Origin: Vicinamibacteria bacterium
GTDB lineage: Bacteria; Acidobacteriota; Vicinamibacteria; Marinacidobacterales; Marinacidobacteraceae
Direction: 5' to 3'
Assembly: GCA_965115855.1 (NCBI GenBank)
Contig: OZ220470.1
Span: 2,328,422 to 2,392,421, forward strand
Length of the DNA: 64,000 bases
Below, one piece after another: positions 20,033-58,548 of this stretch; positions within the stretch are counted from its first letter, which is position 1; each line of letters opens with the position of its first letter. The notes beneath the pieces were generated by a model, which saw only the letters and a list, made by a program, of their open reading frames with translations, did not search any database and was not told the DNA's origin. The position numbers and the translations under genes are program-made.

Positions 20033-23000
20033 TCACCAGCCGAGGGCGCCCTGGAGCGCGAGTCGCCGGTCCCGCGTTCCCATGACGCTCTCGCGCCGCG
20101 CCCCTTCGAGGTCCAGCCGGAAGAGCGGACCCAGCTGGTAGCGGGCGCCGAGCCGCAGGGCCCGGCCCATCTCCGCCATCTGGAGGCCCGCATACGGGGT
20201 CAGGACCCCGGCCAGGGGAAGCCCGAACCCGTGGCCGCCCTCCGCCGTCAGCCGCCGCTCCGCCCGCAACCCCGCCATCGGGGTCGGGGAGAACGCCGGG
20301 GTCCGGTCGAACATCTGCTGCAGGCCGCTCTCCGTGCCCCCCTGCGACGGCGCCACCTTCAGGAACGGACCCCGTCCCTCATCGCCGGGATCGAGGCTCA
20401 CCATCGCCCCCACGCCCCACTCACGGCGTTCCGTCTCGGCGTGCGTGACCAGCGCCCGGCTACGCACTTGCAATGTCAGTCCCGGGTCCCGCATCCGGTA
20501 CGCCACGCTTCCGCCGACCTCGACCCCCGCGCCCTCCACCGCGTCGCCCCGGTCGTACAGAACCCCCACCTCCAGCGCCGGCGTCAGCGTACCCGTGCCC
20601 AGCGTCCGCTCGTGCGAGCCTTCCAGCATCAACCGCAACCGGCTGGTGTGCGCCGTCAGGCCCTCGAGGCCCGACTCCGAGGCCGTGCTGAAGCGCGCGT
20701 ACGAACCCTCGCCCTTGACCGCCAGCCGGGTCATGCCCCCCGCCAGCAGATCCGCATCCCGGAACAGCACGCTCCGACCGCCCACCGCACCGCTCGCAAA
20801 CGACATCCCCGCGTCCCGCTTGTTCATTCCCGTCTCGGTCACTCGCACCTCGCCCCGACCGTAGCCCCCGCTCGCCCACAGGTTCGACCCGTCGGGCGCC
20901 AGCCACGCCAGGTAGGGGTGCGCCGAGGTCAGTCCCGCCTCGTAGATCCCGGCCACCGAACCGGTCTCGGCGGCGCCGCTCGCATCGAAGTCGCCGGTCG
21001 CGTGCGACACCACGATCCCCGCGAGGAAGTCCGAACCGATCCGCGCGTCCGCGCCCACGTGCGCGGACCACAGTCCCCCGTCCCACGAGACCTCACGGTC
21101 GGTCCCGGAAAGCGACAGCCGTCCGCCCCGGCCCCAGACGCCGATCGCCGGGAATCCGCCCTCCTCCTCTTCCTGGCCGAGCGTCATGCCGAACGCCGCC
21201 CCGTCCAGCACGTCGGCGAGCCGCAACGGCCGGTCGGTCCGCCCGCCGAATCCGGTCCGATCTCCTAACGCTCCCGTCCGGCCGTCGTGCCGCAGGTTGA
21301 GCACTCCTTCGGAAGAGGCGGACATCGGCATCGCGCCCAGCCGCAGCTCGCGCGACGCGAACCCCGCCGACACCGACTCGATCCGGTCGGCAACCGCCCC
21401 CAGCGTCTGCGTCGCGAACCCCGCCGCGAACTGCGGAAGGATCACCTCGTTCAACCGATTCGCACGACCCAGCGCCTCCGCCGACGTCGTGTTCCGCACC
21501 GTCACCGACACCGACTCCGCCGTCACCCCGCCGTAGTCCCCGCCGGACACCCGGTGGCTCACCGTCGCCCTCATGTCCGCCAGCGAGTCCTCGTCCTCCA
21601 CCCCGCTCACCGTCACCGTCTGCGGGGTGTCCCAGTTCGCGGCGGTAAAGGAGAGCGCCTCCGAGACCGTCGCCGCTCCCCCGTCGCTGCTCGCCGGGGT
21701 GACCGTCACCGGACCCGTCGGTTCGCTGGTGAGCACCACCGTGTAGGTCCCGCTTCCGTCCTCGTCCACCGTCAGTTCGGTCGGGGTCACCGTCACCCCC
21801 GCCTTGTCGTTGTCGGTCACCCGCACCGACACCGCATCGGCCTTCACCGAGTCGTAGTCCCCGCCCGAAACCTCGTGGGTCAGGGTCGCGGTATCCGCCA
21901 CCGCGTCGGCGTCCTCCGCCGCGCGGACCGTCACCGTCTGCGCCGTGTCCCAGTTCGCGGCGGTGAACCCGCGCGACGCCGGCGCCACCGTGATGTCCCC
22001 CGCCGCGCCAGCGATCGCCACCGTCACCTCCGCCGTCGGCTCGCTGGTCAGCGCCACCGTGTAGGTCCCGCTTCCCCCCTCGTCCACCATCAGTTCGGTC
22101 GGGGTCACCGCAACCCCCGCCTCGTCGTTCTCGGTCACCCGCACCGACACATCGGCGATCGAAACCGAACCGTAGCCCCCGCCCGACGCCTCGTGGGTCA
22201 AGGTGGCTGTGTCCGCCACCGCGTCGGCGTCCTCCGCCGCCCGGACCGTCACCGTCTGTGGCGTGTCCCAGTTCGCCGGGGTGAACGTCAACGACGACGG
22301 TGAAACCGTCACATCCCCGGACGCGCCCGACACCGTGATCGTGACGTTCCCCGAAGGACGCCGGTCCAGAACCACCGTGTAGACGGCGCCGCCGCCCTCC
22401 GACACCCGCAGCGTCGCCCGCGACACCGTCACGCCTTTCGTCCCCGTGGGAGTCGTCGAGCCGCCGCCGGAACCGCCACCACCTCCTCCGCCGCCACTGG
22501 CGGTCGGCGCCTGCGACGTCGCCGTTACCCGGATCACAATCTCCTCGGTGTCCGAGTTGCCGTTCCCGTCCGACGCCGTCACCTCCATCGTGTATGTCCC
22601 TACCGTTGTCGTCGTGAACATCAAACGCGCCTGGTTCAGCGCCGTGCCGCCGGGAATCGCCGGCGCCGTCTCGCCCGCCTTGCGCGTCCAGGCGTAGGTG
22701 ATCGGGTCGTTGTCCCCGTCCGTCGCCACCGCCGTGATGTCCACCGCCTGGCCGGCCTTCACTGTCCGGTTCGCGATCCCCGACAGCACCGGCGACTCGT
22801 CGTCATCCTCGATCGTCCCCGTCGCCGTCGCGTCCGTGATCGTCGTCCCCGCCGATGCATCGGACAGGGTCACCGTGAACGTCTCGTTGTTCTCGTCGAG
22901 ATCGTCGTTCGTCACCGACACCGTGACCGTCGCGCTGCCCGCGTTCGCCGCGACCGTCGCCGCGGTCGCCGGCGTCACCGCGGTGAAGTCCGTGCCCGCC

Positions 23001-24665
23001 GTCGCCGTGTCGCCGCTTTCCGCCGTCACCGTGTACTTGAACGACGCCTCCGACGAGGGCGCAGGAGAAGCCGTCACCGTGAACGTGAACGTCCCGCCCT
23101 CCGCCGCCGTCACGTCCCCGATGCTCAGCGAGGTCGGGACGTTCTTCAGCGTGCCGTCCGCCGTGCGGTCGGCCCCCCGCACATAGCCGGTCCCGTTGCG
23201 CAGGGTGATCCGGTAGGCCTCCGCGCCTTCCACCGTCGAGTCGAGGATCGTCGGGATCGTCACCGTCCCGGTCGTGCTCGCGGTGCTGCCGAAACTTGCG
23301 GTGAAGTTCCTCGGACCGAGCGAACCCCGTATGTCCGCCGCAGTGAAACCGTTCGAACTCCGCGCCGCCAGCCGCAGACGCACCTTCAGGTCTCCGGTCA
23401 GCGCCTTGTCCGACGTGACCGTCAGGCTGATCGCCGTCCCCTCGGTCACCGCCGCCGGATCATTCAGAAGCTGCAGGACCGGCGTCGTGTCGGTCACCGT
23501 CACGTCCACATCGTCGATACCGAGCTCGTTGCCGTAGTCGGCGTCGGAGCTCGCCGACGAATGCGTCAAGGTCGCCGTGTCGTCCTCCGCGTCCGCGTCC
23601 GTCCCCGCGTTCACCGTGATCGTCTGCGCCGTGTCCCAGTTGGATGTCGTGAAGGTCAGCGGCGAACCCGCCACCGTTACATCGCCCGACGCGCCGCCCA
23701 CCGTCACGGTCACGCTCGCCGAGGGTCTCCTGTTCAGCTTCACCGTATAGGTGTTGCTGCTCCCCTCTTCAACCGTCAGCGACGACGGCGAGATAGTCAC
23801 CCCGGCGGGAGGGTTCGGTGTCGCCGTCACCTCGTTGGACATGGGAGCAAGGATGGCGGTCGGGACACCCGGAGGGGGGGTGGTCGTGCGCCCGACCTGG
23901 AAGCTGTACGCGGTACCGTTGGTCAGACCCGTCACCGTGTGGGTTCGTTTTGTCTTCCCGCCGGGAATGTCGTACATGCTGCCGCTGCCCCCTCCGGCGC
24001 CTTTCTTCTGAAGGTACACCCAGGAGAGGAAGAACTCCGGGTCCGCATATGTCCAGTCAAGTCTCACCCGTCCGTCACCCGGCGTGGCGGAAAGGACGAT
24101 GGCGCTGGCCATCGGCGTCACGGTGACTGCATCCGAGACCACTCCGTAACCGACGTTGTTCACCGCGCGGATCTTGAAACTGTACGTTCTGCCGTTCCTC
24201 AGACCCGTCACCCGGTAACTCTCCGTCGTTGCGCTGGCCCCGGTCATGGTGATCCACGACCCGTAGCGCCCCGTGCCCGACTTCTGCCGGTAATCCCATC
24301 CGGTAATGCTGGGATCACTTGGAATCGCCCACGTCAACAATACGCTTCCAGAGCCCGGAGTGGCGCTGACTCTCGTTGGCTTGACAGGTACTTGCGCTTG
24401 CTGTCCGATGATACCGGCATCCCTCTGGTTGGTCCGAGCCAACCCGGCGGCGTTCCGTGCCCCCGCATCCGGCGCAAGGACGACGGCCAGCGAGATCGTA
24501 GTGAGTGCCGCGACTCGGCGGCGAGCGTTTCTTCTACCGGGCGCCCTCAGCCCCGCGTCTGGATTTCGGGGGGGGGGGGGGGGGTAGAGAGTCGCGTTGC
24601 GCCGGACCGAAACCAGCGGGGCCCAACACCCGCGTCACGCGCTGCGGCCTTGCTGTCACTTCCAT
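20033..24665 (-). CDS. large autotransporter (type Va) adhesin-like protein
   Basis: Built from FN3 domains, five ~100-aa passenger repeats and a C-terminal beta-barrel. The C-terminal ~300 aa match autotransporter beta-domain architecture and end in ...LALQGALGW. Passenger: 2 FN3 domains, then five repeats with signature NWDTxQTVTVxAxxDADxxDDTATLTH. A signal-peptide-like region RRRVAALTTISLAVVLAPDAGA lies upstream of the first annotated codon. The proposed true start is ATG 24665 with SD AGGAG 7 nt upstream, but it is out of frame at the current 17-nt homopolymer. Confidence 0.7.
24568..24584. repeat. G17 homopolymer (C17 on the coding strand) in the autotransporter leader
   Basis: Direct count of 17 consecutive G. 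The upstream ATG frame and the signal-peptide frame differ by 1 nt across the tract. Confidence 0.9.
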
Positions 24666-25159
24666 CACGAACTCCTGCGAATGGCCGAATAAAGGAGCAG
24701 GAACACTCCATCGGGGTTGGTGAACCACCCCAGGGGAATCACCGGTTTATGTAAAGGGGATTGTTTCCGAATCAGGAGTCGCAAATCAAGTGCGTGTATG
24801 AGCCCACGGGATATCCCGGTCGTTCACGACGAAAGGGGCCTCAACTCAATTTCGAGTGGATACGGGCGGGAAGCCCGTCGGGGGGCCGGGTGTCAAGGGC
24901 GGGCGTAGCCCGGCGGAGTGGACCCTTGACGCACGGACCCACGAGGGGCATGCTTGGTTCGGGTCGAAGGCAGCAGAATGCTGTTTTCGGCCCATCACTG
25001 CCTGGGAAACTCCTCATGGAGAACCAGATATTCGGAACCGCGCTCGGCTTGACGGGACTTTGGTTCGTCGAGGTTCCTCCCGCACCGTTTTCTTCCTCAT
25101 CTCCGGGAAATTCGACTTCCCAAGCTCAGCACCCATTTCGCCTAACCCACTCGAAATTC

Positions 25160-26598
25160 GGCTCTATTGAATTTCGAGTGGGTTATGCGAGGTGAGGGTT
25201 GAGCTTGGAGAAGTCGAGTTTTCCGGCGATAAGAAAGAAAACGGTGCGGATGGTGCGGAAGGAACGATACCCCCTGGCTTTCCGCTTGGCGGATTGGAAG
25301 AGGCCATTGAGGGCTTCTATGAACCCGTTGGTCTGGCGGGTTCGGGCCCACGCGGTGATGCCGTCGAAGTGTCTTCGGATCATCCGGGCGACGGCTTTCA
25401 TGGGTTCGATCCGGGATCGATTCACGTTGGTGCACCACTGCTGGAGCATGGCCCGCATGACATGGACTTGCTTGCGGTGGAGGATGGCACGGAGTTGCTC
25501 CCGGTACCGCCAAGCTCGAGTGGTGCGCTTCCCAGCGGTCTGTGCGATCAGCGCGTTGAGTGCGGCGCGTTGGTTACGGCTGAGGTGTGTCGGATTCTTG
25601 AGCAAGGTCCAGCGCATGCCCTTGATCCCCGGATCGACCCGCTGCTCGATGCGTCTGGTTTCGTCGAGGGCACTCGAGGCGTGGGCGACGACATGGAACT
25701 TGTCGAAAGTGATTTGGGCATGGGGCAAATGCTTCGCAACCCCCTTGATGAAAGCAGGGGACATGTCGATCGAGACGAACCGGATCGCTTCGGGAGCGCC
25801 ACCCTGTACCGCCAAGTTCCGGGCGAATTGTCCGACCGTGTCGGCCCCCCGGCCCTCCCCGACAAACAGCACCCGGCGCTTGCGGGCGTCGGCGGCAACG
25901 GTGACATAGGCGTGCCCCCGGGCCCGGGAGGTCTCGTCGATTGCGACGGCGCGAACGTCGCCCTGGTCGTCCTCCGCGGAGGCGAGTTCCACGTATTGGT
26001 TGCAGATGGTCTGAACCCGGTGTGGAGAAATCTTGTTCAACCGTGCGACCGCGGCGAAGGGCATTTCCCGACTCATGACGATCACCAACGCTTCGAAGAG
26101 CGCAGTGAACCCGGAGACCTGACCCGTCCAGGGCGTGGTGACCAGCGCGATCCGTCCGTCGGGCAGACGGACTCTCGGAACCCTCGCTACCACTTCGCAT
26201 TCATACTGGAAGAAGTTGAGGTGGCGATAGCGCTTGGTCTTGGTGTCGTGGATGGGGTGTGTACCTTCGTGGTCCTTGTGAGGAAAGCGGGCGCCACGCT
26301 GAAAGTCGATATGGATGATCAGCTTGCGATCACACTCGACAAACTTCACGCTTTCGACGAACCAAGGTTCGATGAGGCCAAGGGCGGTTGCGAAGATGCG
26401 GTGGATATCTGTCATGAGATGCTTCTCCTATGCAGAGATGGGCCGAAAAGCAGCATTCTGCCGCTTTTCGAGCCCGAACCAAGCATGCCCGTCGCGGGTC
26501 CGTGCGTCAAGGGTTCGCTCCGCCGGGCTACGCCCGCCCTTGACACCCGGCCCCCCGACGGGCTTCCCGCCCGTACCCACTCGAAATTGAGTTGAGGC
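25160..26598 (-). mobile_element. ISL3-family insertion sequence, copy 1 (1439 bp)
   Basis: Identical to the copy at 56000..57438. Imperfect ~24-bp terminal IRs (GGCTCTATTGAATTTCGAGTGGGT / GCCTCAACTCAATTTCGAGTGGGT). 8-bp TSD cgaaattc at 25152-25159 and 26599-26606. Confidence 0.85.
25183..26415 (-). CDS. ISL3-family transposase
   Basis: 410 aa, identical to the ORF at 56023..57255. Its conserved blocks match the ISL3 (IS1001/IS1096/IS1165-type) family. Confidence 0.85.
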   Translation of the reverse strand: MTDIHRIFATALGLIEPWFVESVKFVECDRKLIIHIDFQRGARFPHKDHEGTHPIHDTKTKRYRHLNFFQYECEVVARVPRVRLPDGRIALVTTPWTGQVSGFTALFEALVIVMSREMPFAAVARLNKISPHRVQTICNQYVELASAEDDQGDVRAVAIDETSRARGHAYVTVAADARKRRVLFVGEGRGADTVGQFARNLAVQGGAPEAIRFVSIDMSPAFIKGVAKHLPHAQITFDKFHVVAHASSALDETRRIEQRVDPGIKGMRWTLLKNPTHLSRNQRAALNALIAQTAGKRTTRAWRYREQLRAILHRKQVHVMRAMLQQWCTNVNRSRIEPMKAVARMIRRHFDGITAWARTRQTNGFIEALNGLFQSAKRKARGYRSFRTIRTVFFLIAGKLDFSKLNPHLA

Positions 26599-26624
26599 CG
26601 AAATTCAATAGAGCCCGAAAGGGG

Positions 26625-54466: not shown

Positions 54467-55404
54467 TCCCCCGGCTGCTCGTCCTGTTGTTCGTCGCCGG
54501 TTGCGGTGGGCCGCTGCCGGTGTGGCTGGACGTGGATCCGGCGGTGATGCGCGGGGGCCATGAACCCGATGACGGGGTGGCGATGGTCCAGGCGTTCCAC
54601 TCCCCGGAGGTGGAAGTGGTGGGAGTCGGTGTGGCCTTCGGGAACGCGCCACTCCCGATCGGGCTTCCGATCGCCCGGCGCATCGCCGCCGAGTACGGCC
54701 CGCCCGGCCTCCCGGTTCACGAGGGCGCCGCCTCGCCGTCCGCGGATCCCACTCCGGCATCCCGGGCGCTCGCGGCCGCCCTTCGGGAACGCCGACTGAC
54801 GGTCCTGGTGCTGGGGCCGGCGACGAATCTCGCGGCCACTCTTCGCGCGGACCCCGGGTTGGCGAAGCGGCTCGAATCGGTCGTCCTGGTGGTCGGGCGG
54901 CGCGCAGGCGAGCCCTTGACCTTTCCCGGAGGCGGCCCGAATCTTCCCGACTTCAATTTCGAGCTGGATCCGGCCGCTGCGAAGCTGGTCCTGGCGAGCG
55001 GTGTCCCGATCACCCTGGCGCCCTTCGAGTTCGCGGTGCGCCTTCCCGTGACCGAAGCCGACTGGACCCGTCTGTGGAGTACTCCGTTCGCCCGCCTCTT
55101 TCGCGGGCCGATCGAGGACTACCTCGACTGGTTCGGGGAGAACCAGGGCCTGCGGGCCACCTACCCCTTCGATTCCTATGCGGTGGCATCGGTTGTCGCG
55201 CCCCACCTTCTCCGGTGCGATCCGGAGACCGTCGCGGTGCGCCCCGGTCCCGCCGACACTCCCACCGACGAGGGAGACACCAAGCCCTGGCTGATACCGG
55301 TTGCGTCCGGAGCGGGATGGCCGGTTACCTGGTGCCACACCCCGGATCCGGCGCTGCGGGACGACTTGCTCCGTCGGCTGGCGTCGCCTCGCATCGATCC
55401 TTGA
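54463..55404 (+). CDS. inosine-uridine preferring nucleoside hydrolase family lipoprotein
   Basis: DVDPAVMRGGHEPDDGVAMV plus the GN motif of IU nucleoside hydrolases; lipobox LFVAGC. Start codon unclear. Confidence 0.7.
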   Translation: MIPRLLVLLFVAGCGGPLPVWLDVDPAVMRGGHEPDDGVAMVQAFHSPEVEVVGVGVAFGNAPLPIGLPIARRIAAEYGPPGLPVHEGAASPSADPTPASRALAAALRERRLTVLVLGPATNLAATLRADPGLAKRLESVVLVVGRRAGEPLTFPGGGPNLPDFNFELDPAAAKLVLASGVPITLAPFEFAVRLPVTEADWTRLWSTPFARLFRGPIEDYLDWFGENQGLRATYPFDSYAVASVVAPHLLRCDPETVAVRPGPADTPTDEGDTKPWLIPVASGAGWPVTWCHTPDPALRDDLLRRLASPRIDP

Positions 55405-55999
55405 CCACGGGCTCTCAGAACGGTCGGAATTTCGAAACACCTCGATGGGATTTCCGTGTCTGCTTCGGAGTTCTTTCTTTTGAGTTTCGAATCGCTACTG
55501 AACATGTACTGAAACAGGACCCACAAACGCGCACTCTGAAATGCGAACGGCTTGGGTCAACCGAATCAATGTCATTGCTTTCCTTCGAGTTGGAGTTTCG
55601 TGCGCAAATATTCCATTCCTCTTGGACCCTTTATGCGGTTACAGCTCCCACATAGAAGTTGAAGATTTTCCAAGTGATCTGTCCCTCCGTATGCTCTTGC
55701 GATAATGTGGTCAATTTCGAGATTGCGCATCTCGAAGTGCACACCACAACCTTCGCAATCACCCTCTTGTTGTCCATAAAGAGTCGCCTTGTGGCAACTT
55801 GGAGGAGGGAGAGATCCCAAATCGGTTCTGAGCGGCACATCCGTTCTATGAGCGACTCTCCCGAAAACCTCACCCCGAGCCTTTATTCGTTCAACAACAA
55901 GGTCCCCTGCCTTGGGAGAAAGGTCTATCCCTGCCCATTTTCGAGCCAACTCGTTGGCAGCAACCATGGTCGTGGCACATCCACAGAATGGATCCAAAA

Positions 56000-57438
56000 G
56001 GCTCTATTGAATTTCGAGTGGGTTATGCGAGGTGAGGGTTGAGCTTGGAGAAGTCGAGTTTTCCGGCGATAAGAAAGAAAACGGTGCGGATGGTGCGGAA
56101 GGAACGATACCCCCTGGCTTTCCGCTTGGCGGATTGGAAGAGGCCATTGAGGGCTTCTATGAACCCGTTGGTCTGGCGGGTTCGGGCCCACGCGGTGATG
56201 CCGTCGAAGTGTCTTCGGATCATCCGGGCGACGGCTTTCATGGGTTCGATCCGGGATCGATTCACGTTGGTGCACCACTGCTGGAGCATGGCCCGCATGA
56301 CATGGACTTGCTTGCGGTGGAGGATGGCACGGAGTTGCTCCCGGTACCGCCAAGCTCGAGTGGTGCGCTTCCCAGCGGTCTGTGCGATCAGCGCGTTGAG
56401 TGCGGCGCGTTGGTTACGGCTGAGGTGTGTCGGATTCTTGAGCAAGGTCCAGCGCATGCCCTTGATCCCCGGATCGACCCGCTGCTCGATGCGTCTGGTT
56501 TCGTCGAGGGCACTCGAGGCGTGGGCGACGACATGGAACTTGTCGAAAGTGATTTGGGCATGGGGCAAATGCTTCGCAACCCCCTTGATGAAAGCAGGGG
56601 ACATGTCGATCGAGACGAACCGGATCGCTTCGGGAGCGCCACCCTGTACCGCCAAGTTCCGGGCGAATTGTCCGACCGTGTCGGCCCCCCGGCCCTCCCC
56701 GACAAACAGCACCCGGCGCTTGCGGGCGTCGGCGGCAACGGTGACATAGGCGTGCCCCCGGGCCCGGGAGGTCTCGTCGATTGCGACGGCGCGAACGTCG
56801 CCCTGGTCGTCCTCCGCGGAGGCGAGTTCCACGTATTGGTTGCAGATGGTCTGAACCCGGTGTGGAGAAATCTTGTTCAACCGTGCGACCGCGGCGAAGG
56901 GCATTTCCCGACTCATGACGATCACCAACGCTTCGAAGAGCGCAGTGAACCCGGAGACCTGACCCGTCCAGGGCGTGGTGACCAGCGCGATCCGTCCGTC
57001 GGGCAGACGGACTCTCGGAACCCTCGCTACCACTTCGCATTCATACTGGAAGAAGTTGAGGTGGCGATAGCGCTTGGTCTTGGTGTCGTGGATGGGGTGT
57101 GTACCTTCGTGGTCCTTGTGAGGAAAGCGGGCGCCACGCTGAAAGTCGATATGGATGATCAGCTTGCGATCACACTCGACAAACTTCACGCTTTCGACGA
57201 ACCAAGGTTCGATGAGGCCAAGGGCGGTTGCGAAGATGCGGTGGATATCTGTCATGAGATGCTTCTCCTATGCAGAGATGGGCCGAAAAGCAGCATTCTG
57301 CCGCTTTTCGAGCCCGAACCAAGCATGCCCGTCGCGGGTCCGTGCGTCAAGGGTTCGCTCCGCCGGGCTACGCCCGCCCTTGACACCCGGCCCCCCGACG
57401 GGCTTCCCGCCCGTACCCACTCGAAATTGAGTTGAGGC
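56000..57438 (-). mobile_element. ISL3-family insertion sequence, copy 2 (1439 bp), inserted in the MTase-HNH gene
   Basis: 100% identical to 25160..26598. 8-bp TSD atccaaaa at 55992-55999 and 57439-57446. The frame bookkeeping (1447 nt, congruent to 1 mod 3) fits the flanking ORF frames. Confidence 0.9.
56023..57255 (-). CDS. ISL3-family transposase (copy 2)
   Basis: Identical 410-aa ORF. Confidence 0.85.
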   Translation of the reverse strand: MTDIHRIFATALGLIEPWFVESVKFVECDRKLIIHIDFQRGARFPHKDHEGTHPIHDTKTKRYRHLNFFQYECEVVARVPRVRLPDGRIALVTTPWTGQVSGFTALFEALVIVMSREMPFAAVARLNKISPHRVQTICNQYVELASAEDDQGDVRAVAIDETSRARGHAYVTVAADARKRRVLFVGEGRGADTVGQFARNLAVQGGAPEAIRFVSIDMSPAFIKGVAKHLPHAQITFDKFHVVAHASSALDETRRIEQRVDPGIKGMRWTLLKNPTHLSRNQRAALNALIAQTAGKRTTRAWRYREQLRAILHRKQVHVMRAMLQQWCTNVNRSRIEPMKAVARMIRRHFDGITAWARTRQTNGFIEALNGLFQSAKRKARGYRSFRTIRTVFFLIAGKLDFSKLNPHLA

Positions 57439-57710
57439 ATCCAAAACAAGGTCGCCCACGTCGGATGTGGAACTGATGATCCGGTGCAGAAGCGCGAGCG
57501 GTTTCTGTGTCGGAAAGCCGGTACGCTCCTTGGAAGACCCGGGAATGATCGGAATATCCCATACATCTCGCATTGGCATTCCGAGTGATTTTTTGTCTCC
57601 CGTGATTTTCTTGGATTTGGTAATCGGATCGAGGATTTGCGACCTCCCCTTGAATACGCGAAGAGTGGACGTTGATAACTCCTCGTAGCCCTGATTCCAA
57701 GACCATCTTA

Positions 57711-57726
57711 CCCCCCCCCCCCCCCC
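57711..57726. repeat. C16 homopolymer (G16 in the mRNA; poly-Gly codons) inside the MTase-HNH reading frame
   Basis: Direct count of 16 C. The upstream and downstream MTase frames differ by 1 nt across the tract. Confidence 0.9.
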
Positions 57727-58548
57727 GTATACCAAAAGAGAACGTCGTGCATTCGCTGAAATCGGCGCTGCTTTGACGGCCACCGCTTGTACGACCATAT
57801 GATTTCGTTCTGGAATGCGTCTTTCCCAAATACTGAATCCATGACCATTTTCAGGGGATGACTCATCGTGGGGTCACAGTGAAGCCACACTGATCCTGTC
57901 GGTTTCAGTATTCTTCGAATTTCCAAAATGCGCGGCGCCATATAGGCGAGATAGGATTTGTCGCTATCTGTAATGGCTGCCAAGATAATCTTGTGGAGAG
58001 ATGGATGCTTGGCTTCAATTAGATTGACCCACTCAGCATCTACATCGGAGAGCGACCACGTATCTTTAAAAGCAGCCCCTGCTGCCGTAGAACCAATAGG
58101 TGCGGCGTAGTCGGACTCGGAGTTGAAAGGAGGATCCAAATAGATTAGATCCACTGACTCGGAATTCATGCCTCGCATAATTGGGAGGTTGTCTCCGGTC
58201 CATACAGTCTTGTCGGCCCAATTCGGTTTGCCCATATCGAGAGGATATAGGAAACCTCACGCCATCGACACGGCACTCACCGATGGCGGCGTTTACGCTG
58301 CCTGCGAAGGACTTCGTGGCGCACGCCAAAGTGGATCGTTTTGATCGACTGCGAGGAATCGGCCTGCCTGCATGGTCCGGCAAGGGGTCGGTCCGTGCGT
58401 GCGGGATCGCCACGAGGTCAAGCGGATCGACGAGGAACTTTACGTCGGAACCAGTCGGGCTTCCACGGTGCTCTCAATGGGCATAAGCTTCCTCCGTACG
58501 CGCCGGAACTGCGCAAGGAGGTCTCTTTTGGGAAGACGAACAGCGGGA

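What the first reader, a model, noticed from the sequence alone, without database searches (positions are those of the whole stretch)
24830..26623. Nested ISL3 structure: full copy inserted into the right inverted repeat of an internally deleted ISL3 relic
The 1439-bp IS at 25160-26598 is flanked by 8-bp direct repeats cgaaattc. Those repeats and the surrounding ~340 bp are themselves an ISL3 derivative in the opposite orientation. It has an IRL-like end gcctcaactcaatttcgagtgg at 24838, an upstream leader, the first ~22 transposase codons (MENQIFGTALGLTGLWFVEV against MTDIHRIFATALGLIEPWFVE), and then jumps to the last ~20 codons plus IRR. The relic IRR (acccactcgaaattc | caatagagcc) is split precisely by the full copy. 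The relic carries its own TSD cgaaaggg (24830-24837 and 26616-26623). The relic is about 85-90% identical to the active copy, so it is an older MITE-like deletion derivative that later served as a target, with ISL3 homing into its own IR.
Basis: seen in the sequence. Interest (0 to 1): 0.55.

Follow-up and report, generated by a model that had tools for sequence, protein, structure and literature searches.

The report
ISL3 element nested in ISL3 mini-element
A working 1.4-kb ISL3 jumping gene has landed inside the end repeat of a 331-bp gutted relative of itself; the structure is real and tidy, but it is an ordinary kind of transposon-in-transposon nesting.

Summary
A 1439-bp ISL3-family IS (25160-26598, transposase on the minus strand) is flanked by the 8-bp duplication CGAAATTC. 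It is 100% identical to a second copy at 56000-57438, which has its own duplication, ATCCAAAA. Removing the IS and one duplication copy restores a 331-bp element (24838-25159 plus 26607-26615) with its own 8-bp duplication, CGAAAGGG.

This element is collinear with the full IS: IRL, leader and about 19 N-terminal codons, then about 21 C-terminal codons and IRR. About 1.09 kb is deleted. Its termini are almost identical to the active IS (IRR 26/26; first 120 nt 96%). Its interior is 71-81% identical, so it derives from a sister ISL3 lineage.

A second relic-type copy (58/59 residues identical) is fused to an IS3-family orfA in the genome that carries the identical transposase. This supports a small MITE-like family.

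"Homing" into its own IR is not shown. The event is a canonical insertion with a target duplication. Target duplications of this clade are AT-rich, and the IR core is an AT-rich patch in a 67% GC genome. None of about 144 other IR ends, nor a metagenome scan, showed a second case.

Verdict: a new member of known kinds, of low interest.

The parts
24830..24837 (.). Left copy of the relic's 8-bp target duplication, CGAAAGGG
   Evidence: Identical to 26616-26623. Chance of an 8/8 match is about 4e-5.
24838..24861 (+). Relic IRL, GCCTCAACTCAATTTCGAGTGGAT
   Evidence: 23/24 identical to the IRL of the active IS. The one difference (A at position 23) is private to this copy. The second relic-type copy, P0124, encodes ...FRVGT..., which is GGGTAC.
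24862..25015 (+). Relic 5' leader, including the conserved hairpin motif TCAAGGGCGGGCGTAGCCCGGCGGAGTGGACCCTTGA at 24893-24929
   Evidence: Nt 1-120 of the relic are 115/120 identical to the active IS. The motif is invariant across 8 diverged ISL3 elements.
25016..25071 (+). Remnant of the first ~19 transposase codons (MENQIFGTALGLTGLWFVE)
   Evidence: Aligns to full-IS positions 184-245 at 71%. It has the family-typical N-terminal length, whereas the active IS has 2 extra codons.
25072..25079 (+). Internal deletion junction (uncertain by a few nt). About 1085 bp of the transposase gene is missing here.
   Evidence: Relic reads ...TTGGTTCGTCGA|GGTTCCTC|CCGCACCG.... The full IS continues with AAGCGTG on the left side and resumes around position 1332-1350 on the right.
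25080..25142 (+). Remnant of the last ~21 transposase codons (RTVFFLISGKFDF..., with a 1-nt deletion), out of frame with the N-terminal remnant
   Evidence: 81% identical to full-IS positions 1350-1413. Frames shown.
25143..25159 (+). Inner 17 nt of the relic IRR. Its last 8 nt (25152-25159, CGAAATTC) are the left copy of the inner target duplication.
25160..26598 (-). Intact 1439-bp ISL3-family IS. IRR 25160-25183, transposase 25183-26415 (410 aa), leader 26416-26574, IRL 26575-26598.
   Evidence: Pfam DDE_Tnp_ISL3 1.2e-66 and HTH_Tnp_ISL3. NCBIfam transpos_ISL3 300.9 bits against a cut-off of 180. 100% identical to 56000-57438.
26599..26606 (.). Right copy of the inner target duplication, CGAAATTC
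26607..26615 (+). Displaced outer 9-nt tip of the relic IRR, AATAGAGCC
   Evidence: Joined to 25143-25159 it gives a 26-nt IRR identical to that of the active IS. See, pair I8.
26616..26623 (.). Right copy of the relic's target duplication, CGAAAGGG
55992..57446 (-). Second, identical IS copy (56000-57438) with its own duplication ATCCAAAA (55992-55999 and 57439-57446). It is inserted in an N6_N4 DNA methyltransferase-HNH gene.
   Evidence: It serves as the reference for the IS boundaries and shows recent activity.

Best explanation
Three successive transposition-related events produced the structure.

1. An ISL3-family element of a sister lineage lost about 1.09 kb of its transposase gene. 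What remained was a 331-bp non-autonomous, MITE-like element. It has both inverted repeats, the 5' leader, about 19 N-terminal codons and about 21 C-terminal codons, with the two codon remnants out of frame.
2. That element inserted at the octamer CGAAAGGG and duplicated it. The site lies 173 bp upstream of the probable start of a giant adhesin-like gene. Mobilisation in trans by the resident ISL3 transposase is inferred, because the element's termini are essentially identical to those of the active IS. A near-identical relic-type copy lies in an IS3-family orfA elsewhere in the genome.
3. Recently, the autonomous 1439-bp IS made a canonical insertion into CGAAATTC, which is positions 10-17 of the relic's IRR. 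It entered in the opposite orientation and duplicated the octamer. This cut the IRR into a 17-nt inner part and a 9-nt tip, and so very likely immobilised the relic.

Shown: the anatomy, both duplications, the collinearity, the order of events (IS into relic) and the recency of step 3. Inferred: trans-mobilisation, and the reason the IR was hit. The most likely reason is that the IR core (TTGAATTTCGAG) is one of the few AT-rich patches this AT-preferring IS can use in a 67% GC genome, and that an insertion in a non-coding relic costs the host nothing.
For: Boundaries and duplications.

Collinear alignment to IRL, leader and N-terminus, then C-terminus and IRR.

Reconstituted IRR 26/26 identical, and a perfect 17-nt inverted match I8.

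ISL3 membership of the transposase.

Recent activity. Two 100% identical copies have different duplications. A 1-residue variant, P0121, occurs in the same 3,016,700-bp contig, so there are at least 3 copies.

Sister-lineage origin. The termini are 96-100% identical but the interior only 71-81% (Fisher p = 7e-6). The relic N-terminus has the family-typical length.

Second relic-type copy. P0124 is an IS3-family OrfA joined at ...DRDFF to the relic-type IRL and leader. It is 58/59 identical to the relic, against 79% to the active IS. No intact relic-type transposase appears among the homologues; the next best hit after 100% is 73%.

AT-rich targets. Ten duplications of this clade are TCAAAATT, AAATTTT[T/G], AAAAGAGC, ACAAATAT, ACAAATCA, GGCGCAAC, TTTTTCCT, CGAAATTC and ATCCAAAA, plus the relic's CGAAAGGG. 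The window is 67.3% GC and only 6.7% of its octamers have 5 or more A/T. Only 25 AAATT/AATTT pentamers occur in 64 kb, 8 of them in the IS and relic sequences.

ISL3-derived MITEs exist elsewhere. A 298-bp element at L074 2265-2562 has a second partial copy at L042. A 187-nt ISL3-type MITE with 8-nt repeats is described in Microcystis (PMC11448079).
Against: The source genome could not be read.

- Only about 200 nt of the second relic-type copy are seen, and only through a protein. Whether it carries the same deletion junction is unknown. MITE status therefore rests on 2 copies.
- No exact copy of the deletion junction was found in metagenome or viral collections.
- Trans-mobilisation is untested.
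- On composition alone, a hit in the 12 or so eligible positions of one particular IR is improbable: about 0.3% of the AT-rich octamers in this window and far less genome-wide. Some additional pull toward the IR cannot be excluded.
Confidence: 0.85

Rival explanations
1. IR-directed self-targeting ("homing"). Transposase bound to the relic's IRR tethers the incoming transpososome, so this ISL3 preferentially inserts into IRs of its own kind. A side effect would be that it disables its non-autonomous parasite.
For: The target lies inside a 26-nt IRR identical to the IS's own. By AT content alone such a hit is rare. IR-targeting is documented for another IS family, IS30 (PMC9333248).
Against: There is only one event. 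It is a canonical 8-bp-duplication insertion inside the IR and gives an IRR-IRR juxtaposition. IS30 IR-targeting instead integrates next to the IR and gives only IRL-IRR junctions. The other identical copy sits in an ordinary AT-rich site in a gene. No other pair of IR cores lies within 60 nt among 150 cores in 104 loci plus the window. The head-to-head IR pattern had 0 hits in the metagenome contigs. The octamer CGAAATTC fits the clade's general AAAT/AAATT-type targets.
Confidence: 0.12
2. Reverse order with in-situ decay. A full-length sister ISL3 sat here, the active IS inserted into its IRR, and the outer element lost its interior afterwards. The 331-bp form would then never have moved as a MITE.
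For: The final structure is the same under either order. The deletion junction was not seen in any other sequence.
Against: A second relic-type copy, 98% identical, exists at another locus. No intact relic-type transposase is present in that genome or anywhere in the 5.8-billion-protein set. The inserted IS is 100% identical to its sister copy and so very recent, which leaves little time for a later deletion. The terminal sequences are far better conserved than the interior, as expected for elements that still had to be recognised by a transposase.
Confidence: 0.12
3. Chance similarity or assembly artefact. The flanks only share short IR-like palindromes with the IS, or the nest is a mis-join of repeat copies.
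For: None found. Repeat-rich regions are in general prone to misassembly.
Against: There is collinear similarity over 245 and 90 nt (E 1e-71 and 3e-23). Two perfectly placed 8-bp duplications are present. Excision restores a 26/26 IRR. The flanks differ from the IS at 14% of positions, so they are not mis-placed reads of the IS itself.
Confidence: 0.01

Closest known systems
ISAe1 (ISL3 family, Cupriavidus necator H16 megaplasmid) and unnamed ISL3 elements of Burkholderiales
   Same: Single DDE_Tnp_ISL3 transposase of about 410 aa, about 1.3-1.5 kb long, GGCTCT.../GCCTC... terminal repeats with the core AATTTCGAGTGGGT, and 8-bp duplications.
   Different: Only about 67% nucleotide identity. 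The best protein relative outside the source genome is 73% identical. By the usual ISfinder thresholds (my own knowledge) this would be a new IS.
ISL3-mobilised MITEs, e.g. the 187-nt Microcystis MITE (PMC11448079) and the 298-bp element at L074 2265-2562
   Same: A short element without a transposase, with terminal repeats matching an autonomous ISL3 and an 8-nt duplication. The L074 element also keeps the conserved leader hairpin.
   Different: No sequence relationship beyond the IRs and the leader motif. Only 2 copies are documented here, whereas classical MITE families have many. The relic still shows recognisable transposase codon remnants, so it is a young deletion derivative.
IS30 / IS911 IR-targeting
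   Same: An IS lands at the inverted repeat of a related element.
   Different: IS30 integrates next to the IR, forms IRL-IRR junctions and does not follow the normal hot-spot insertion pathway (PMC9333248). Here the IS is inside the IR, 9 nt from its tip, with the family's normal 8-bp duplication and an IRR-IRR arrangement.
Generic nested IS clusters (IS-in-IS insertions)
   Same: A younger element interrupts an older, non-essential one, and the order of events can be read from the nested duplications. The second relic-type copy itself sits inside an IS3-family orfA.
   Different: Nothing essential. The only particular feature is that the target is the terminal repeat of a relative.

Membership tests
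ISL3 family insertion sequence (the 1439-bp element) | DDE transposase of the ISL3 type | tested here: met
   Pfam DDE_Tnp_ISL3 E 1.2e-66 and HTH_Tnp_ISL3 E 3e-12. NCBIfam equivalog transpos_ISL3 300.9 bits against a cut-off of 180.
ISL3 family insertion sequence (the 1439-bp element) | 8-bp target site duplication | tested here: met
   CGAAATTC and ATCCAAAA flank the two copies. Relatives also show perfect 8-bp duplications.
ISL3 family insertion sequence (the 1439-bp element) | Imperfect terminal inverted repeats starting GGCTCT/GCCTC, and a total length of about 1.2-2.3 kb | tested here: met
   The 24-nt IRs match at 20/24 and the element is 1439 bp. The Microcystis ISL3 ITRs start GGCTCTTCG. 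The length range is from my own knowledge of ISfinder.
MITE / non-autonomous deletion derivative (the 331-bp relic) | Small size and no functional transposase | tested here: met
   331 bp. Only about 19 and about 21 codon remnants remain, out of frame with each other.
MITE / non-autonomous deletion derivative (the 331-bp relic) | Terminal repeats shared with an autonomous element in the same genome, and its own target duplication | tested here: met
   IRL 23/24 and IRR 26/26 identical to the active IS, with the 8-bp duplication CGAAAGGG.
MITE / non-autonomous deletion derivative (the 331-bp relic) | Several copies with the same internal structure at different loci | tested here: inconclusive
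   One further relic-type copy is seen through P0124, 58/59 identical over IRL plus leader. Its deletion junction is not visible. Junction scans of metagenome and viral collections gave 0 hits. The source genome is not readable.
MITE / non-autonomous deletion derivative (the 331-bp relic) | Mobilisation in trans by the autonomous element's transposase | not testable with these tools
   Needs a transposition assay.
IS30-type IR-targeting | Integration next to the IR, forming an IRL-IRR junction, without the regular hot-spot type insertion | tested here: not met
   The insertion is 9 nt inside the IRR, with a regular 8-bp duplication and an IRR-IRR juxtaposition. Criteria are taken from PMC9333248.
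Composite transposon (two identical IS copies bracketing 26599-55999) | One shared target duplication at the outer ends of the pair | tested here: not met
   Each copy has its own matching duplication, CGAAATTC and ATCCAAAA, so these were two independent insertions.

The most novel reading that the evidence does not exclude
This ISL3 lineage may recognise the terminal repeat of its own kind as a preferred target. An autonomous copy would then selectively insert into, and inactivate, the non-autonomous mini-elements that parasitise its transposase. The deeply conserved leader hairpin kept by these mini-elements would be a cis-acting site in that interplay.
Probability: 0.1. Interest if true: 0.4.

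Novelty: new member of a known kind. Interest (0 to 1): 0.2.

Why it matters
The value is mostly for annotation. The nest defines a new, currently active ISL3 insertion sequence with at least 3 copies. It also defines a small ISL3-derived non-autonomous element, and it gives a clean relative chronology of three events. It sits 173 bp upstream of a probable phase-variable giant adhesin gene, so it may affect that gene's expression. If IR-directed insertion were real it would be a modest addition to knowledge of ISL3 target choice, but a single event cannot establish it.

Tried and rejected
Reaching the source genome failed.
- Exact look-ups of the window transposase, P0001, P0121, a SIR2-family protein and P0124 all returned "not on record".
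- The IRL+leader 30-mer had 0 hits in genome contigs and in viral contigs.

Searches for more relic copies or more nests found little.
- The relic junction 23-mer had 0 hits in metagenome contigs and viral contigs.
- The head-to-head IR pattern had 0 hits in metagenome contigs.
- A search of the representative protein library with relic frame +1 gave only one spurious hit at E 8e-5.
It returned many chance or fragmentary hits and no element at 85% identity or better.

Ideas rejected.
- The Rfam miRNA-precursor hits at 25099-25226 are artefacts of the quasi-palindrome made by the abutted IRR regions (DNA fold -68.5 kcal/mol, z -15).
- I read TTGACG-N17-CATGCT in the leader as a possible transposase promoter, but the consensus scanner found no promoter-like site.
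- The composite-transposon reading of the two identical copies is rejected because their duplications differ.
- The poly-C tracts near the two ISL3 ends lie at similar distances (254 and 273 bp), but their flanks are not homologous, so I treat this as coincidence.

Literature searches for ISL3 target specificity or ISL3 IR-targeting found nothing specific.
Full report
**1. What is in the sequence**

A 1439-bp element occupies 25160-26598. Its left end is GGCTCTATTGAATTTCGAGTGGGT. Its right end, reverse-complemented, is GCCTCAACTCAATTTCGAGTGGGT.

It carries one long ORF on the minus strand (25183-26415, 410 aa). The ORF matches Pfam DDE_Tnp_ISL3 (E 1.2e-66) and HTH_Tnp_ISL3. It also matches the NCBIfam equivalog transpos_ISL3 at 300.9 bits against a cut-off of 180.

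The octamer CGAAATTC flanks the element at 25152-25159 and 26599-26606. A second copy at 56000-57438 is 1439/1439 identical. It is flanked by a different perfect octamer, ATCCAAAA. This second copy fixes the IS boundaries independently and shows two separate, recent insertions.

The protein database holds the identical transposase (P0001) and a one-residue variant (P0121) on a single 3,016,700-bp contig. The genome therefore has at least three copies.

**2. The relic**

Removing the IS and one copy of CGAAATTC joins 24838-25159 to 26607-26615. The result is a 331-bp element flanked by CGAAAGGG at 24830-24837 and 26616-26623. An 8/8 match at pre-set positions has a chance probability of about 4e-5 at this base composition.

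The 331 bp align collinearly, in the orientation opposite to the inserted IS. Relic 1-234 aligns with full-IS 1-245 (IRL, leader, about 19 codons). Relic 243-331 aligns with full-IS 1350-1439 (about 21 codons and IRR). About 1085 bp of transposase gene are missing. The junction reads ...TTGGTTCGTCGA|GGTTCCTC|CCGCACCG... and is uncertain by a few nucleotides, because the parental sequence is diverged. The two codon remnants are out of frame, and the C-terminal remnant has a 1-nt deletion.

The reconstituted IRR is 26/26 identical to the active IRR. The repeat finder output shows the displaced tip plus duplication (26599-26615) as a perfect 17-nt complement of 25160-25176 (pair I8). The IR core AATTTCGAGTGGGT occurs six times in the window, two per element, against 0.29 expected.

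**3. Where the relic comes from**

Identity to the active IS is very uneven:

| Segment | Matches |
|---|---|
| nt 1-120 (IRL and leader) | 115/120 |
| 3' leader | 51/63 |
| N-terminal codons | 44/62 |
| C-terminal codons | 52/64 |
| IRR | 26/26 |

The heterogeneity is significant (Fisher p = 7e-6).

The relic's N-terminal peptide (MENQIFGTALGL...) has the spacing typical of the family (M-x3-[IL]-F). The active IS has two extra codons (MTDIHRIF...). The relic also departs from otherwise near-invariant residues: EPW becomes GLW, AGKLDF becomes SGKFDF, and NPH becomes STH. That is what loss of coding constraint would produce.

The relic is thus a deletion derivative of a sister ISL3 lineage that shares its termini with the active IS. 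It is not a decayed copy of the active IS itself. Part of the high identity of the first 120 nt reflects a deeply conserved leader motif (section 7).

**4. Is it a family?**

The source genome could not be read. However, a protein search with the relic's longest ORF found P0124 on the 3,016,700-bp contig. P0124 is an IS3-family OrfA (HTH_Tnp_1; NCBIfam transpos_IS3 N-terminus). After ...DRDFF it continues as ASTQFRVGTGGKPVGG...AEWTLDARTHEGHAWFGSKAAECCFRPITAWETP, which is the translated IRL and leader of an ISL3 element.

By tblastn this part is 58/59 identical to the relic, but only 79% identical to the leader of the active IS. After a 1-nt indel the protein follows another relic frame exactly (SWRTRYSEPRSA).

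At least one more relic-type copy therefore exists at another locus, inside another IS, at roughly 98-99% identity. No intact relic-type transposase exists in that genome or anywhere in the database. After the 100% hit the next best is 73%. This supports, but does not prove, a small MITE-like family mobilised in trans. The second copy's deletion junction is not visible. Exact-junction scans of metagenome and viral contigs were negative.

ISL3-derived MITEs are already known.
- A 187-nt Microcystis MITE has ISL3-type ITRs and 8-nt repeats (PMC11448079).
- A 298-bp element with the same IRR and leader motif was found here in a Steroidobacteraceae MAG (L074 2265-2562), with a second partial copy at L042.

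**5. Why the IR?**

The insertion is a canonical one. It has an 8-bp duplication, lies 9 nt inside the IRR, and gives an IRR-against-IRR juxtaposition. This differs from IS30-type IR-targeting, which integrates next to the IR and yields only IRL-IRR junctions (PMC9333248).

Ten duplications collected for this clade are AT-rich with A/T tracts: TCAAAATT, AAATTTT[T/G], AAAAGAGC, ACAAATAT, ACAAATCA, GGCGCAAC, TTTTTCCT, CGAAATTC, ATCCAAAA and CGAAAGGG. The window is 67.3% GC, and only 6.7% of its octamers have 5 or more A/T. There are only 25 AAATT/AATTT pentamers in 64 kb, and 8 of them lie in IS or relic sequence. The IR core is therefore one of the scarce sequences this IS likes. An insertion in a non-coding relic is also neutral for the host.

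On AT content alone a hit in one particular IR is still improbable, so tethering by IR-bound transposase cannot be excluded. But it is a single event. No other pair of IR cores lies within 60 nt among 150 IR cores in 104 fetched loci plus the window. A head-to-head IR pattern had no hit in 241 million metagenome records. Both negatives are weakened by the fact that short-read assemblies break at repeats.

**6. Rivals**

- In-situ decay after the insertion gives the same final structure. It is disfavoured by the second relic-type copy, by the absence of a cognate transposase, and by the 100% identity of the inserted IS to its sister copy.
- Chance similarity or misassembly is excluded by the alignments and by the two nested duplications.
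- The two identical IS copies bracket 29.4 kb but have different duplications, so they are not a composite transposon.

**7. Context and things noticed**

- **Quasi-palindrome.** The abutted IRR regions form an 80-90-nt quasi-palindrome (DNA fold -68.5 kcal/mol, z -15). This explains the spurious miRNA-precursor hits in Rfam.
- **Leader motif.** The leader contains a motif, TCAAGGGCGGGC-loop-GCCCGGCG.AGCG.ACCCTTGA. It is invariant across eight elements whose transposase genes are only about 70-78% identical, and both MITE-like derivatives keep it. Covariation is uninformative because the stems do not vary. No Rfam family matches.
- **Poly-G tract near the nest.** A G17 tract at 24568-24584 lies in the 5' part of the giant fn3/Calx-beta/PKD autotransporter-like gene. 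An ATG with an AGGAG upstream (24665-24663, minus strand) is one frame off from the long ORF. The upstream extension of that ORF encodes a signal-peptide-like segment. This looks like a slipped-strand phase-variable adhesin in the OFF state. The relic's IRL is only 173 bp upstream of that ATG.
- **Poly-C tract near the second copy.** The second IS copy splits an N6_N4 methyltransferase-HNH gene at its DPFCG motif. That gene also contains a C16 tract at 57711-57726, with different frames on the two sides.

**8. Verdict**

The elements are a new ISL3 IS and a new ISL3-derived mini-element. The closest named relative is ISAe1 at about 67% nt, and the closest protein is 73% identical. Nesting of this kind is well known. 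"Homing" remains an unproven single case. Interest is low.

Noticed in passing
window 24568-24584 (G17), with 24663-24665 and the ORF 20033-24442 (minus strand): A 17-nt homopolymer sits in the 5' end of the giant fn3/Calx-beta/PKD autotransporter-like gene. An upstream ATG with an AGGAG (MEVTARPQ...) is out of frame by one with the long ORF. The upstream extension of that ORF reads ...PPPPPRNPDAGLRAPGRRNARRRVAALTTISLAVVLAPDAGA (signal-peptide-like). This is probably a slipped-strand phase-variable adhesin, currently OFF. The relic lies 173 bp upstream of this ATG.
   Followed up: partly
window 55150-58000 (minus strand), C16 at 57711-57726: IS copy 2 interrupts an N6_N4 DNA methyltransferase-HNH endonuclease fusion gene at the DPFCG motif. 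The same gene has a 16-nt homopolymer with different reading frames on either side, so it may be a phase-variable methyltransferase that is now also IS-inactivated. In the related MAG locus L002, an N6_N4_Mtase fragment also lies between two ISL3 copies.
   Followed up: partly
window 24893-24929 (+), 26507-26543 (-), 57347-57383 (-); also L001-L004, L044, L047, L053, L073, L074, L090: A conserved 33-48-nt hairpin motif in the ISL3 leader, TCAAGGG CGGGC-loop-GCCCG GCG.AGCG.A CCCTTGA, lies 12-51 nt inside the IRL. It is invariant across elements with about 70-78% identical transposase DNA and is retained by both MITE-like derivatives. The inner loop varies in length. It is not in Rfam, and covariation is uninformative. 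It could be a transposase or host-factor binding site, or an mRNA structure.
   Followed up: partly
L074 2265-2562 and L042 1-112 (Steroidobacteraceae MAG JBOHZR01): A 298-bp MITE-like ISL3 derivative with the same IRR and leader motif, in at least two copies in that MAG. The complete copy has no matching 8-bp duplication.
   Followed up: partly
window 25099-25226: Rfam E-value hits to plant and animal miRNA precursor families (MIR5185 at E 1e-7). They are artefacts of the long hairpin created by the abutted IRR regions.
   Followed up: yes
window 25160-26598 and 56000-57438: Two identical IS copies in direct orientation, 29.4 kb apart. They could serve as substrates for deletion of the intervening genes by homologous recombination. 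They are not a composite transposon, because their duplications differ.
   Followed up: yes
L001 67-1534 and 1782-3249 (ENA MAG ERZ25068685, contig ctg6959): Two copies of the 73%-related ISL3 element lie in tandem, 247 bp apart, each with its own AT-rich duplication (TCAAAATT; AAATTTT[T/G]). IS5/DDE_Tnp_1-type transposase genes are next to them, so this is an IS-dense patch.
   Followed up: no
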